NCBI RefSeq assembly: GCF_000027125.1
Contig: NC_017626.1
DNA length: 64,000 bases
Direction: 5' to 3' (one strand)
DNA from: Escherichia coli 042
Lineage (GTDB): Bacteria; Pseudomonadota; Gammaproteobacteria; Enterobacterales; Enterobacteriaceae
Positions 34,601 to 37,600 of this stretch are shown piece by piece. Each line of letters starts with the position of its first letter. Positions within the stretch are counted from its first letter, which is position 1. Made by a program: the position numbers.

Positions 34601-37600
34601 CATGTGGGTTATGTGATCGTCGTCATCGGCGCTTTACTGGCGACGGCTTCAGCCATCAACGCGAACCTGTTCGCCGTGTTTAACATCATGGACAACATGG
34701 GCAGCGAACGCGAACTGCCGAAGCTAATGAATAAATCCCTGTGGCGGCAGAGTACCTGGGGCAACATCATTGTCGTGGTGTTGATTATGCTGATGACGGC
34801 GGCACTAAATTTAGGCTCACTCGCCAGCGTTGCCAGCGCCACCTTTTTGATTTGCTATCTGGCGGTGTTTGTGGTGGCGATCCGCCTGCGTCATGATATT
34901 CACGCCTCGTTGCCGATTCTTATCGTTGGTACGTTGGTGATGTTGTTGGTGATCGTTGGCTTTATCTACAGCCTGTGGTCCCAGGGCAGCCGTGCGTTGA
35001 TATGGATTATTGGTGCAATCTTACTCAGCCTTATTGTGGCAATGGTCATGAAGCGCAATAAAACCGTATAACACCTCTCTGTGCGCAGTACAGCCTGTAC
35101 TGCGCCTTTGTCTTTAATTCAAATTACCTTTCTTATTCCTTTAATAAATAAGTCACAAAAAAATGATATATACGCGATAAATCTGTGATGCTAATCACTT
35201 ATTACCGTGGATTATTCTTAATGTGTATGATGGTAATCTAAAAGTCGTAGTGTATTCTAAATAAATAACGTATAAGCTTTTTAGCTGCATTTCTTTGCCA
35301 ATATCAATGATCGACAAAAGAGATGCACAAGTTATTACCCTTCTTAATAAAATGAGACTGGTTATAAAAACCAGTTAAAATAATGACCTGGAAGGAAGTG
35401 ACTTATCTATGGCGCGATTCCAGTTTAAAAGCCGTAAAAATAATGGGTTTATTTTTTTAATAAGTTTTATGGTGATGGGAGAAGCTACAATTGCTGCACC
35501 GCTGCCACAATGGGCGAACGCCCCAGCGGTAACGCCAGTTGCCCAATTATCTTTACAGGAAAGTATATTACGCGCCTTTGCGCGAAATCCCGACGTCACT
35601 CAACAGGCGGCGCAGATAGGTATTGGCGAAGCGCAAATTGATGAAGCCAAAAGTGCCTGGTATCCGCACGTTGGATTAACCGGCAACGCGGGGCCGTCCC
35701 GACAAACGGACTCCAGCGGCAGGCTTGATAACAACGTTTCGTATGGCATAACCCTGACACAACTGGTGTATGACTTTGGTAAAACTAACAACGATATCAA
35801 TCTGCAAACTGCCGCCCGTGACAGCTACCGCTTTAAATTGATGGCAACCTTAACCGATGTTGCAGAGAAAACGGCGACTGCCTATATGGAAGTCAGTCGT
35901 TATCAGGCTTTGTGCGATGCGGCTCAACGCAATATTCACTCGCTGGAAAACGTCTACAACATGGCAGCATTGCGTGCTAACGCTGGCCTGAACTCGTCGT
36001 CGGATGAATTACAGGCCCAGACGCGCATTGCCGGAATGCGCTCAACGCTGGAGCAATATCAGGCGCAGATGGCAAGCGCCAAAGCGCAACTGGCGGTGCT
36101 CACTGGCGTACAGCCGGAGGCGATAGCCGCGCCACCTGCTGAATTAGCCGAGCAGCCGGTATCGCTGAAAAATATTGATTACCAGTCCATCCCGCTGGTG
36201 CTGGCGGCAGAAAACTTACGCCAGTCAGCACAGTACGGCGTGGAAAAAACGAAAGCGCAATACTGGCCAACGCTGAGTATTCAGGGGGGCAAAACGCGCT
36301 ACCAGACCAGCGACCGCTCGTATTGGGATGATCAGCTACAACTGAACGTTAACGCGCCGCTGTATCAGGGCGGCGCGGTTTCTGCCCAGGTGCAACAGGC
36401 CGAAGGGCAACAAAAAATCTCTGCCTCGCAGGTCGAACAGGCAAAACTGGATGTGCTGCAACGAGCGTCTGTGGCATATGCCAACTGGACAGGCGCATGG
36501 GGTCGCGAAGAAGCCGGTTTAGCACAATCCGAAAGTGCGCACAAAACGCGAGATGTGTACCAAAATGAATATAAATTGGGCAAACGCAGTCTGAATGATC
36601 TATTAACCGTCGAGCAAGATGTCTTTCAGGCGCAATCGGCTGAAATAAATGCCAATTATGATGGCTGGGTCGCCGCCGTAAATTATGCCGCTGCGGTGAA
36701 TAACCTTATTCCATTAGCGGGAATTAAACAGGGCTTATACAACGACTTACCCGACTTGAAATAATCCTGCCATTATTAATATCAGGTATGCCTCGTTGTT
36801 AAGTGATTACCTTTGTCTTATTTAGATAAATGGACTCGCTAAGGATATGCGCCATTTATCAGGAATGCCATTATGAGCCTGATTATTGATGTTATTTCGC
36901 GTAAAACATCCGTCAAACAAACGCTGATTAATCCTGGCGACGTCACGGTTGTTATTTATGAGCCTTCCGTGGTGCAGGTTCATGCTCAGGCCTCTGCCGT
37001 TGCGCGTTACGTCCGTGAAGGAAATGACCTGCTGATCTATATGCAGGACGGCACGGTGATCCGCTGCAACGGTTATTTCCTGCAAGCGGCGAATACCGCT
37101 GAACAATCGGAACTGGTGTTTGCCGATGGACAACAGCTCACCCACGTCACCTTTGCCGATACTGCTGCGGGTGGATTAGCCCCCGTAGAACTGACTGCCC
37201 AGACCACCGCAATTGAAAGCATTGCGCCATTTCTTGATACCGTTGCTCAGACCAGCACCTTCCCGTGGGGATGGCTGGCGGGGGCGGCGGTAGGCGGTGG
37301 CGCGCTTGGTGCACTGCTGGCAAGCGGTGGCGATGGCGACTCGAAAACGGAAGTGATTAGTAACCCTACGCCACCCGCTGAGCCTGGCAACGCCACTCCA
37401 TCATTTTTAGTTACCGATAATCAGGGCGATCAGCGCGGCATTCTCGCCACCAATGACATCACCGATGATACCACGCCAACCTTTAGCGGCAGCGGGCAGG
37501 CGGGGGCGACTATTCAGATTAAAGACAGTAACGGCAATACTATTGCCAGTACTCAGGTAGACAACAACGGTCACTGGAGTGTCTCGTTACCCACGCAAAG

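What the first reader, a model, noticed from the sequence alone, without database searches (positions are those of the whole stretch)
35120..35408. AT-rich block at the island boundary: candidate H-NS-silenced promoter
The roughly 290 bp preceding the first island gene is far more AT-rich than the flanking sequence and contains phased A/T tracts. This is the composition typically bound by H-NS at horizontally acquired loci. It is the only obvious promoter-bearing region for the whole OMP-adhesin-ABC-MFP(-cueR) string.
Basis: inference. Interest (0 to 1): 0.3.

Follow-up and report, generated by a model that had tools for sequence, protein, structure and literature searches.

The report
Promoter and leader of OI-28 operon
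The AT-rich stretch is the already-studied control region (promoter plus a 144-base untranslated leader) of an E. coli adhesin-secretion operon known as O-island 28. It is ordinary for a promoter region, and silencing by H-NS is plausible but untested.

Summary
The AT-richness is real. Window 35120-35408 has 29.4% GC against 55% for the window, the lowest 0.05% of all windows of that size. The claimed phasing of A/T tracts is not above chance.

The block is the ybaT-tolC28 intergenic region of E. coli O-island 28 (TolC-like OMP, giant SiiEA/RTX adhesin, ABC, MFP). Published work on O157:H7, whose sequence here is 98.6% identical, places three things in it:
- an RstA box, identical at 35115-35128;
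- an active promoter-lacZ fusion;
- a Cappable-seq start site that maps to 35265, silent in exponential LB and strong in stationary phase. The gene is 55-fold RpoS-dependent.

About half the block (35265-35408) is therefore transcribed leader, which is predicted to fold and pair the ribosome-binding site. I also found a conserved CRP-like site at 35184-35199.

I found no H-NS data for this locus. Composition makes local binding likely, but the operon body is 59-63% GC, so it is not classic AT-rich foreign DNA.

The "island boundary" is really a deletion edge. K-12-type strains keep the last ~100 bp of the MFP gene, and other Escherichia species carry the locus at the same site.

It is not the only promoter: other start sites exist, and cueR has its own.

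Verdict: partly supported, largely already known, low interest.

The parts
35083..35105 (+). Predicted intrinsic terminator of glsA-ybaT. The K-12-type deletion edge (35099/35100) falls in its descending arm.
   Evidence: 10-pair stem with 6 G-C pairs, loop of 3, tail CTTTGTCTTT. Searches give the junction.
35115..35128 (+). RstA box TAATTCAAATTACC, centred at -143.5 from the main start site
   Evidence: The sequence is identical to the box reported at -294..-280 from the tolC28 ATG in O157:H7. There, deleting the box abolished the RstA gel shift and ChIP-qPCR showed about 6-fold enrichment (PMC12758282). It is only partly conserved in other Escherichia.
35184..35199 (+). Candidate CRP site TGTGAtgctaaTCACt, centred at -73.5 from TSS1 and -91.5 from TSS2 (prediction made here)
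   Evidence: The exact pattern TGTGA-N6-TCAC[AT] occurs at 2 loci in the 64 kb against 0.23 matches expected. It is the second-best score in the window. TGTGAT and ATCACT are invariant in 6 Escherichia sequences while the inner 4 nt vary.
35226..35258 (+). Core promoter: -10 TATTCT (35253-35258) and a poor -35-like TATGAT (35226-35231) with a 21-bp spacer
   Evidence: bTSSfinder boxes reported for EDL933 TSS 579751, mapped by exact 31-mer. BPROM picked the same elements in PMC12758282. TATTCT matches the sigma-S -10 TATACT at 5 of 6 positions (read from the sequence). The block is 37-38/41 identical to other Escherichia.
35265..35265 (+). Main transcription start site (TSS1), stationary-phase induced
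   Evidence: Cappable-seq in EDL933, position 579751. Signal is 0 / 4.1 / 0 / 2.4 in four exponential conditions and 64.7 / 53.0 / 31.3 / 9.2 in four stationary ones (PMC10469882 supplements).
35270..35283 (+). Minor second promoter: -10 TATAAG (35270-35275) and TSS2 at 35283
   Evidence: EDL933 TSS 579769, seen in a single stationary-phase condition, mapped. The -10 is read from the sequence.
35265..35408 (+). 144-nt AT-rich 5' leader of tolC28 mRNA, predicted to be structured
   Evidence: MFE -36.2 kcal/mol against -24.6 +/- 3.5 for shuffles, z = -3.34, 0 of 200 shuffles as stable. Outside loop A it is 88-94% identical to other Escherichia, at or above the level of the flanking genes (83-91%).
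35286..35327 (+). Leader hairpin A: 12-bp stem (35286-35297 with 35316-35327) and a hypervariable loop (35298-35315)
   Evidence: Nine pairs are invariant, two show wobble-preserving one-sided changes, and the closing pair is not paired in the two E. coli rows. The loop is only 5/18 identical between species.
35329..35344 (+). Predicted anti-Shine-Dalgarno strand (AAGTTATT..CCTTCT) that pairs with 35390-35404
   Evidence: 14 pairs, invariant in all 5 sequences, so they are uninformative for covariation.
35356..35376 (+). Leader hairpin C (GACTGGTT-ATAAA-AACCAGTT), a DNA palindrome in E. coli only
   Evidence: Four pairs change on one side only and still pair through G-U wobble on the + strand RNA, and the outermost pair is lost in the two non-coli species. 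The palindrome is degraded at DNA level in other Escherichia.
35390..35411 (+). Shine-Dalgarno region GGAAGGAAG and the tolC28 start codon (35409)
   Evidence: Read from the sequence. The same start is annotated by PGAP in strains AF40, O157 Anguil and EDL933.
35409..36764 (+). tolC28 (Z0608), TolC-family outer membrane protein and first gene of the operon
36873..57650 (+). Giant SiiEA / RtxA28-RtxB28 adhesin gene, interrupted in this window by two frameshifts and one in-frame stop
   Evidence: PGAP names it 'BapA-related adhesin SiiEA'.
57654..60988 (+). T1SS ABC permease/ATPase (57654-59816) and HlyD-family MFP (59813-60988). The last ~100 bp (from 60890) survive as the scar in K-12-type strains.

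Best explanation
The block is the regulatory region plus 5' leader of the O-island-28 type I secretion / giant adhesin operon (tolC28-siiEA-ABC-MFP). It is not a structural 'boundary' element.

Reading 5' to 3':
- the ybaT terminator (35083-35105);
- a published RstA box (35115-35128);
- a conserved CRP-like site (35184-35199, my prediction);
- a promoter with a sigma-S-like -10 (TATTCT, 35253-35258) and no usable -35;
- the main start site at 35265;
- a 144-nt leader (35265-35408) predicted to pair the Shine-Dalgarno sequence with an upstream CCUUCU strand.

Shown in the near-identical O157:H7 sequence: the promoter is off in exponential LB and on in stationary phase, the gene is about 55-fold RpoS-dependent, and the promoter is activated by RstA binding to the box.

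Inferred: the extreme AT content makes local H-NS binding likely, with a probability of about 0.6. RstA, bound about 143 bp upstream of the start site, would more naturally act as a counter-silencer than as a contact activator. Any H-NS action should be local promoter occlusion. A filament along the operon is unlikely because the operon body is 57-63% GC. CRP input and leader-mediated control of translation are predictions.
For: - Identity of the locus: (RefSeq annotations); PMC12758282.
- RstA box identical in the window.
- Start site with condition profile and promoter boxes. Exact mapping to 35265.
- RpoS dependence of Z0608 (55x) and Z0609 (20x).
- Core promoter and leader are about as conserved as the flanking genes (88-94% against 83-91%), while the distal upstream part is about 76% identical (59-60 of 78 positions).
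- CRP-like site.
- Leader fold z = -3.34 with the SD paired.
- AT patch lowest in the window.
- Local calibration against CFT073/K-12 H-NS ChIP-seq. Neighbouring genes with a minimum 300-bp GC of 0.36-0.41 (hha, tomB, fetA, fetB) give signals of 7-18. Genes at 0.42 or above give about 1. Two genes at 0.39-0.40 (ybaQ, acrR) give only 2-3. The tolC28 upstream region reaches 0.287.
- No terminator between tolC28 and the adhesin gene, and all five genes fall 3-5 fold in an rstA mutant, consistent with co-transcription.
Against: - No H-NS occupancy or hns-mutant data for this locus could be found.
- The AT patch is only about 430 bp, whereas H-NS regions in O157 Sakai average 1643 bp.
- There is no curvature-type A-tract phasing, and the best match to the H-NS nucleation motif is 8/10, no better than chance.
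- The CRP-like site sits 1-2 bp off the canonical class I positions.
- The leader structure has no compensatory double substitutions and is not shared by the Enterobacter orthologues.
- All experimental data come from O157:H7 rather than the window's strain, whose adhesin gene is interrupted.
Confidence: 0.8

Rival explanations
1. An AT-rich, H-NS-silenced promoter marks the edge of a horizontally acquired island and is the sole promoter for OMP-adhesin-ABC-MFP-cueR.
For: Extreme AT content. The promoter is silent in exponential LB. The neighbouring AT-rich hha-tomB locus is H-NS bound. The RstA site lies far upstream, as expected of a counter-silencer.
Against: - The island body is GC-rich, 57-63%.
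- There is no integrase, tRNA or flanking repeat. The locus is syntenic in Escherichia sp. E1V33 and E. whittamii.
- K-12-type genomes keep an MFP-gene remnant, so absence reflects deletion.
- Additional start sites exist, and cueR has its own constitutive one.
- A-tract phasing is absent.
- H-NS binding is untested.
Confidence: 0.2
2. A plain activator- and sigma-S-dependent promoter with no meaningful H-NS role. The AT-richness simply reflects promoter, UP-like and factor-binding sequences plus an AT-rich leader. Silence in exponential phase is due to lack of RpoS and active RstA.
For: 55-fold RpoS dependence. A sigma-S-like -10 and stationary-phase start-site use. RstA dependence. The AT patch is short and flanked by DNA above 50% GC. 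Orthologous operons in other genera also have AT-rich upstream regions, 0.25-0.45 GC, as most promoters do.
Against: At 29% GC this is far below the other promoter-bearing gaps in the window (0.38-0.56) and below regions that are H-NS bound nearby. The minus-strand start sites inside the block are the kind of spurious initiation that H-NS normally suppresses in AT-rich DNA.
Confidence: 0.35
3. The downstream half of the block acts mainly at the RNA level. The 144-nt leader sequesters the ribosome-binding site, working as a thermometer-like, sRNA-opened or protein-opened switch that gates translation of tolC28.
For: The leader folds far better than shuffles (z = -3.34). The SD GGAAGG pairs with CCUUCU in both the single-sequence and consensus folds. 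Stem arms are invariant around a hypervariable loop, and six of the seven varying pairs change on one side only in ways that keep pairing.
Against: There are no two-sided compensatory changes, and only 5 sequences, 3 of them nearly identical. No Rfam family matches. The structure is absent from the Enterobacter orthologues. No experimental data exist.
Confidence: 0.3
4. The block is a relic of the mobile-element junction (att site, decayed IS or integrase remnant) or hides a small gene.
For: It lies next to a presence/absence breakpoint. Small ORFs of 21-40 codons exist in it.
Against: It is single-copy in E. coli genomes. No repeats, tRNA or mobility genes are present. The breakpoint is a deletion edge. 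The small ORFs are not conserved in frame because a 1-nt indel separates E. coli from other Escherichia. A mapped start site and regulator site account for the sequence.
Confidence: 0.03

Closest known systems
PtolC28, the regulatory region of O-island 28 in EHEC O157:H7 (Niu et al., Gut Microbes 2025, PMC12758282)
   Same: It is the same locus. It is 98.6% identical over the 361 bp spanning the intergenic region, with an identical RstA box and -10 element and the same gene order. The Cappable-seq start site of EDL933 maps by exact 31-mer.
   Different: The window comes from a different strain: 5 substitutions in the region, and the adhesin gene is interrupted at different places. The paper does not mention H-NS, RpoS control, CRP, the start site or the leader, and it treats the island as acquired rather than ancestrally present and deleted.
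H-NS-silenced, counter-silenced virulence promoters (for example the SPI-4 sii operon of Salmonella, LEE1/Ler, PhoP- or SlyA-counter-silenced promoters); comparison from established knowledge
   Same: A very AT-rich promoter region, a response-regulator site far upstream of the start site, silence in exponential laboratory growth, and an adhesin / secretion cargo.
   Different: H-NS binding is not shown here. The AT-rich tract is about 430 bp and the operon body is GC-rich, so a multi-kb silencing filament is unlikely. No curvature signal was found.
Sigma-S-selective promoters repressed by H-NS for sigma-70 (for example hdeAB, csgBA, osmY); comparison from established knowledge
   Same: Strong RpoS dependence, a -10 close to TATACT, a degenerate -35, an AT-rich discriminator and stationary-phase induction.
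   Different: It lacks the -13 C. Direct sigma-S use of this promoter, and any H-NS contribution, have not been tested.
LapA / SiiE / BapA-type type I secreted giant adhesin operons
   Same: A TolC-like OMP, a giant Ig-repeat adhesin, an ABC transporter and an MFP in one string. Orthologous OMP-adhesin pairs exist in Enterobacter, Lelliottia, Pseudocitrobacter, Budvicia, Rosenbergiella and Trabulsiella.
   Different: The upstream regulatory sequences cannot be aligned between genera. Only the low GC of the upstream 300 bp is shared.

Membership tests
Promoter region of the OI-28 operon (PtolC28) | Lies directly upstream of the TolC-family gene that follows ybaT, with adhesin, ABC and MFP genes downstream | tested here: met
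Promoter region of the OI-28 operon (PtolC28) | Contains the published RstA box TAATTCAAATTACC at -294..-280 from the ATG | tested here: met
   Exact match at 35115-35128, which is -294..-281
Promoter region of the OI-28 operon (PtolC28) | An experimentally mapped transcription start site lies inside the region | tested here: met
   EDL933 TSS 579751 maps to 35265 by exact sequence context. The data come from the orthologous strain, not the window's strain.
H-NS-silenced (xenogeneic silencing) locus | DNA markedly more AT-rich than the host genome | tested here: inconclusive
   Met for the 432-bp patch (GC 0.32). Not met for the operon itself (GC 0.57-0.63).
H-NS-silenced (xenogeneic silencing) locus | H-NS occupancy in vivo (ChIP) | not testable with these tools
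   Strains with accessible data lack the locus or list shared genes only. Sakai tables are not held.
H-NS-silenced (xenogeneic silencing) locus | Derepression in an hns mutant | not testable with these tools
   No data set found
H-NS-silenced (xenogeneic silencing) locus | High-affinity nucleation motif (TCGATAAATT) or intrinsic curvature from phased A-tracts | tested here: not met
   Best motif match is 8/10 at 35174, with window-wide counts no higher than shuffles. No 10-11 bp periodicity.
Horizontally acquired genomic island | Insertion signature: tRNA or integrase, flanking repeats, empty site in relatives | tested here: not met
   Only five structural genes are present. The 'empty' site in K-12, CFT073 and H10407 retains the MFP 3' end as a pseudogene. 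The same junction is in 4459 of 5426 genomes. The locus is syntenic in two other Escherichia species.
Sigma-S-dependent promoter | RpoS-dependent, stationary-phase expression | tested here: met
   From the literature on the orthologue: 55-fold WT/rpoS, and start-site signal of 0-4 in exponential against 9-65 in stationary conditions
Sigma-S-dependent promoter | A -10 resembling (C)TATACT with C at -13 | tested here: inconclusive
   TATTCT matches TATACT at 5 of 6 positions, including the C at -8, but position -13 is G (read from the sequence)
Class I CRP-dependent promoter | A TGTGA-N6-TCACA site | tested here: met
   TGTGAtgctaaTCACt, 9 of 10 core positions. Rare in the window and with conserved half-sites.
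Class I CRP-dependent promoter | Site centred near -61.5, -71.5, -82.5 or -92.5; CRP binding and cAMP dependence | tested here: inconclusive
   Centres are at -73.5 (TSS1) and -91.5 (TSS2), each 1-2 bp off. Binding cannot be tested here.
SD-sequestering regulatory leader (RNA thermometer or riboregulator) | The Shine-Dalgarno sequence is paired in a stable, conserved structure supported by covariation | tested here: inconclusive
   Paired in the MFE and consensus folds, z = -3.34. There are 0 two-sided changes, and shuffles give equal scores. No Rfam match.

The most novel reading that the evidence does not exclude
The block is a two-layer switch that nobody has described as such. At the DNA level, a sigma-S promoter is locally occluded by H-NS and opened by RstA (the Ca2+/PhoQP-RstBA input) together with CRP. 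At the RNA level, a conserved 144-nt leader hides the ribosome-binding site of tolC28 until some signal (temperature, an sRNA or a protein) opens it. In addition, the 'island' is an ancestral Escherichia locus that about 82% of sequenced E. coli lost through one ancient 25.8-kb deletion, which also removed cueR's native promoter and cut the ybaT terminator.
Probability: 0.2. Interest if true: 0.4.

Novelty: already known. Interest (0 to 1): 0.2.

Why it matters
OI-28 was recently shown to be needed for early adherence and gut colonisation by EHEC O157:H7, so knowing how its promoter is kept off and turned on has some practical interest.

Three things go beyond the published account:
- The RstA site, the mapped start site and the RpoS dependence can be placed on one sequence map. 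That map shows RstA acting from about -143, which makes an H-NS counter-silencing test worth doing.
- A conserved CRP-like site and an SD-pairing leader are concrete, cheap hypotheses to test.
- The locus looks ancestral to Escherichia and was lost by a single deletion allele. That changes how its 'acquisition' by pathogenic lineages should be described.

None of this is surprising to a specialist. AT-rich promoters of adhesin operons being H-NS targets is the default expectation.

Tried and rejected
- Phased A-tracts or curvature: no periodicity above shuffles.
- H-NS nucleation motif: only an 8/10 match, not enriched.
- Known RNA families in 34800-37200: none at E <= 1.
- Small ORFs or a leader peptide: the reading frame is not preserved between E. 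coli and other Escherichia because of a 1-nt indel.
- The 19-bp palindrome 35357-35375 as a DNA operator: the palindrome is degraded in E1V33 and E. whittamii. It fits an RNA hairpin better.
- Conservation of the CRP-like site or the leader structure in Enterobacter-group orthologues: not found. At a similar distance only a right half-site TCACATTT occurs, with the wrong spacing.
- Direct H-NS evidence, none obtained:
  - ETEC H10407 and CFT073 lack the operon.
  - The Hustmyer 2022 data set covers only the flanks.
  - The Higashi 2016 tables list shared genes only.
  - The Fukui 2016 Sakai binding tables are not held.
  - No supplements are held for the Ler-regulon paper.
  - Searches for Z0608 with H-NS found only the RpoS paper.
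- Mobile-element origin of the block: it is single-copy and has no mobility genes.
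Full report
**What the window is.** The sequence is an E. coli chromosome segment. The order is copA (30077-32581, minus strand), glsA, ybaT (33779-35071), a TolC-family gene (35409-36764), a giant adhesin gene (36873-57650), a type I secretion ABC gene (57654-59816), an HlyD-family MFP gene (59813-60988) and cueR (60985-61392). RefSeq names the adhesin "BapA-related adhesin SiiEA". The five-gene block is O-island 28 (OI-28) of EHEC O157:H7: Z0608 tolC28, Z0609/Z0615 rtxA28/rtxB28, Z0634 hlyB28 and Z0635 hlyD28. The left end of the locus (window 34900-35600) is present in 958 of 5426 complete E. coli genomes, at 95-100% identity over the intergenic region.

**Checking the observation.**
- The AT-richness is real and extreme for this window. 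Positions 35120-35408 have GC 0.294, against 0.55 for the window.
- Only 0.05% of 289-bp windows are as low, and the global minimum sits at 35096-35384.
- The patch below 35% GC runs 35067-35498 (432 bp) and is the longest and lowest in the 64 kb.
- Neighbouring intergenic gaps have GC 0.38-0.56.
- The "phased A/T tracts" are not supported. Tract spacings are irregular, and AA/TT periodicity at 10-11.5 bp is matched by 55% of dinucleotide-preserving shuffles.

**What the "boundary" is.**
- K-12 aligns with the window up to 35099 and again from 60890. The K-12 ybaT-cueR spacer is mostly the last ~100 bp of the MFP gene, with a 1-nt deletion.
- PGAP annotates this remnant as an N-terminally truncated, frameshifted pseudogene in ETEC H10407 and CFT073.
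- The same junction is present in 4459 of 5426 genomes, at 99% identity or more in 4352 of them.
- The operon sits between ybaT and cueR in Escherichia sp. E1V33 and E. whittamii as well. One E. coli strain carries an internally decayed copy.
- There is no integrase, tRNA or flanking repeat.
- So island-free strains are deletion derivatives and the locus is old in the genus. The AT block lies wholly inside the deleted segment, about 20 bp from its left edge, which cuts the predicted ybaT terminator hairpin (35083-35105).
- The operon body is 57-63% GC. It is compositionally foreign in the GC-rich direction, which is not what H-NS recognises.

**What is in the block, from experiments on the near-identical O157:H7 sequence.**
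- Niu et al. 2025 cloned this regulatory region in front of lacZ. The fusion was active and RstA-dependent. RstA ChIP-qPCR enrichment was about 6-fold. An EMSA shift was lost when the box TAATTCAAATTACC (-294 to -280) was deleted. That box is present unchanged at 35115-35128.
- A Cappable-seq study of EDL933 lists a gene start site for this gene at 579751. Its signal is 0, 4.1, 0 and 2.4 in four exponential conditions and 64.7, 53.0, 31.3 and 9.2 in four stationary ones. A minor site lies at 579769.
- By exact sequence context these map to window 35265 and 35283.
- The associated -10 is TATTCT (35253-35258). The nearest -35-like hexamer is 21 bp away, so there is effectively no -35.
- TATTCT matches the sigma-S -10 TATACT at 5 of 6 positions. 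This fits the 55-fold (Z0608) and 20-fold (Z0609) RpoS dependence reported for EDL933.
- The finding's interval is therefore roughly half upstream regulatory DNA and half transcribed leader (35265-35408, 144 nt).

**What I add by analysis.**
1. A CRP-like site.
- TGTGAtgctaaTCACt lies at 35184-35199. The pattern TGTGA-N6-TCAC[AT] is found at two loci in the window against 0.23 matches expected.
- The hexamers TGTGAT and ATCACT are invariant across six Escherichia sequences, while the central four bases vary.
- Its centre is at -73.5 from TSS1 and -91.5 from TSS2, each 1-2 bp off canonical class I positions. It is therefore a candidate only.
2. Conservation is concentrated in the core promoter and the leader.
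- Against other Escherichia, the core promoter is 90-93% identical and the leader outside one loop is 88-94%.
- That is at or above the level of the flanking coding sequences (83-91%). The distal upstream part, including the RstA box, is about 76%.
3. The leader is predicted to fold much better than shuffled sequence.
- MFE is -36.2 kcal/mol against -24.6 +/- 3.5, z = -3.34, with 0 of 200 shuffles as stable.
- The single-sequence and consensus folds share three elements:
  - a 12-bp hairpin (35286-35297 with 35316-35327) whose loop is only 5/18 conserved;
  - a long helix pairing AAGUUAUU..CCUUCU (35329-35344) with GGAAGG.AGUGACUU (35390-35404), the Shine-Dalgarno region;
  - an enclosed hairpin (35356-35376).
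- Seven pairs vary. Six change on one side only and stay paired through G-U wobble in the species that differ; the seventh (outermost pair of the enclosed hairpin) is unpaired in the two non-coli species, and the closing pair of the first hairpin is unpaired in the two E. coli rows.
- There are no two-sided compensatory changes, and the shuffle control is uninformative with five sequences.
- No Rfam family matches, and the Enterobacter orthologues do not share the fold. This is a hypothesis, not a finding.

**H-NS.**
- I could not find any measurement at this locus. K-12, CFT073 and H10407 lack the operon. The SE11/SE15 tables list shared genes only. The Sakai tables are not held.
- Indirect evidence for binding:
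  - In CFT073/K-12 ChIP-seq, neighbouring genes with a minimum 300-bp GC of 0.36-0.41 (hha, tomB, fetA, fetB) have H-NS signals of 7-18. Genes at 0.42 or above sit near 1. Two genes at 0.39-0.40 (ybaQ, acrR) reach only 2-3, so the threshold is not sharp. The tolC28 upstream region reaches 0.287.
  - The block also fires weak minus-strand start sites (window 35131 and about 35222). This kind of spurious initiation is typical of AT-rich DNA.
  - RstA acts from about -143, which is unusual for a contact activator and usual for a counter-silencer.
- Evidence against a classic silencing picture:
  - The patch is about 430 bp, whereas H-NS regions in Sakai average 1643 bp.
  - It is flanked by DNA above 50% GC.
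  - It has no curvature signal and no better-than-chance nucleation motif.
- My estimate is about 0.6 for detectable local H-NS occupancy and about 0.5 for a meaningful repressive effect.

**"Only promoter for the whole string".**
- This is not correct. The same Cappable-seq tables list further start sites:
  - a stationary-phase internal site in tolC28 (581059, about window 36573);
  - weak sites at the adhesin start (36881, 36915);
  - a site early in the ABC gene, seen in 7 of 8 conditions;
  - a site in all 8 conditions 160 nt upstream of cueR, inside the MFP gene (window 60825).
- No terminator is predicted between tolC28 and the adhesin gene, and all five genes fall 3-5 fold in an rstA mutant. 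The block is therefore the main regulated promoter of the operon, but not the sole one, and cueR does not depend on it.

**Verdict.** The compositional observation is right, and the promoter call is right and already published. The H-NS idea is reasonable, unremarkable and untested. The phasing, island-boundary and sole-promoter statements do not hold. This is an already known regulatory region and interest is low. The small additions are the sequence map that joins three literatures, a candidate CRP site, a candidate SD-sequestering leader, and the deletion-scar reading of the locus.

Noticed in passing
window 35099/35100 and 60889/60890; L002 7869-7994: K-12-type strains (4459 of 5426 genomes) share one 25.8-kb deletion allele. 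It cuts the ybaT terminator hairpin and removes the cueR start site used in EDL933 (window 60825, 160 nt upstream of cueR, inside the MFP gene). So cueR must be transcribed differently in K-12, possibly by read-through from ybaT.
   Followed up: partly
window 36873-57650: The giant adhesin gene is split into four ORFs. There is a +1 frame change between 38207 and 38293, a return to frame near 45816, and an in-frame TAG at 51069-51071. This is either a pseudogene (O157 strains also carry internal stops or frameshifts) or assembly error in repeats.
   Followed up: partly
window 21656-23087: A 1.43-kb IS3-family (IS150-like) element, with orfA at 21698-22228 and orfB at 22333-23055, is inserted between gsk and ybaL. 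It is absent from ETEC H10407 and strain AF40.
   Followed up: partly
window 248-263: A perfect CRP-type palindrome TGTGATAAAGATCACA lies between maa and hha. It is the best CRP-like score in the window.
   Followed up: no
window 341-1504: The hha-tomB genes and their AT-rich upstream gap (GC 0.31 at 1182-1471) form the only other patch of comparable AT content. hha and tomB are H-NS bound in K-12 and CFT073 ChIP-seq (signals 14-18).
   Followed up: partly
window 61596-63858 (minus strand): A lipoprotein gene and a 584-aa YadA-family autotransporter adhesin gene lie between cueR and ybbJ, as in EDL933 (where the adhesin is shorter). They are absent from K-12. An AT-rich patch sits at 61576-61846.
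   Followed up: no
window 35131 and about 35222 (minus strand): Weak minus-strand Cappable-seq start sites in EDL933 fall inside the AT-rich block, pointing back into ybaT. They look like spurious or divergent initiation in AT-rich DNA.
   Followed up: no
window 35298-35315: The loop of leader hairpin A is almost completely different between E. coli and other Escherichia (5/18 identical), while both stem arms are conserved. It looks like a replaced or fast-evolving patch.
   Followed up: partly
L003 (1-2326) and L032: Contigs binned as 'Collinsella sp.' and 'Bacillota bacterium' MAGs carry Enterobacteriaceae sequence: L003 holds ybaT-tolC28-adhesin at 99-100% amino-acid identity to E. coli, and L032 holds a tolC28 fragment at 57%. 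Both are almost certainly mis-binned contigs.
   Followed up: no
L029 4001-7956: E. coli strain SCPM-O-B-8794 has an internally decayed copy of the island, with truncated tolC28, most of the adhesin and ABC genes deleted, and the MFP gene retained. This is a second, independent route of loss.
   Followed up: no
window 29732-30080: The ybaP-copA gap differs from K-12, H10407, EDL933 and CFT073, which carry ybaQ (a HigA-family antitoxin) there. The window, like strain AF40, lacks it.
   Followed up: no
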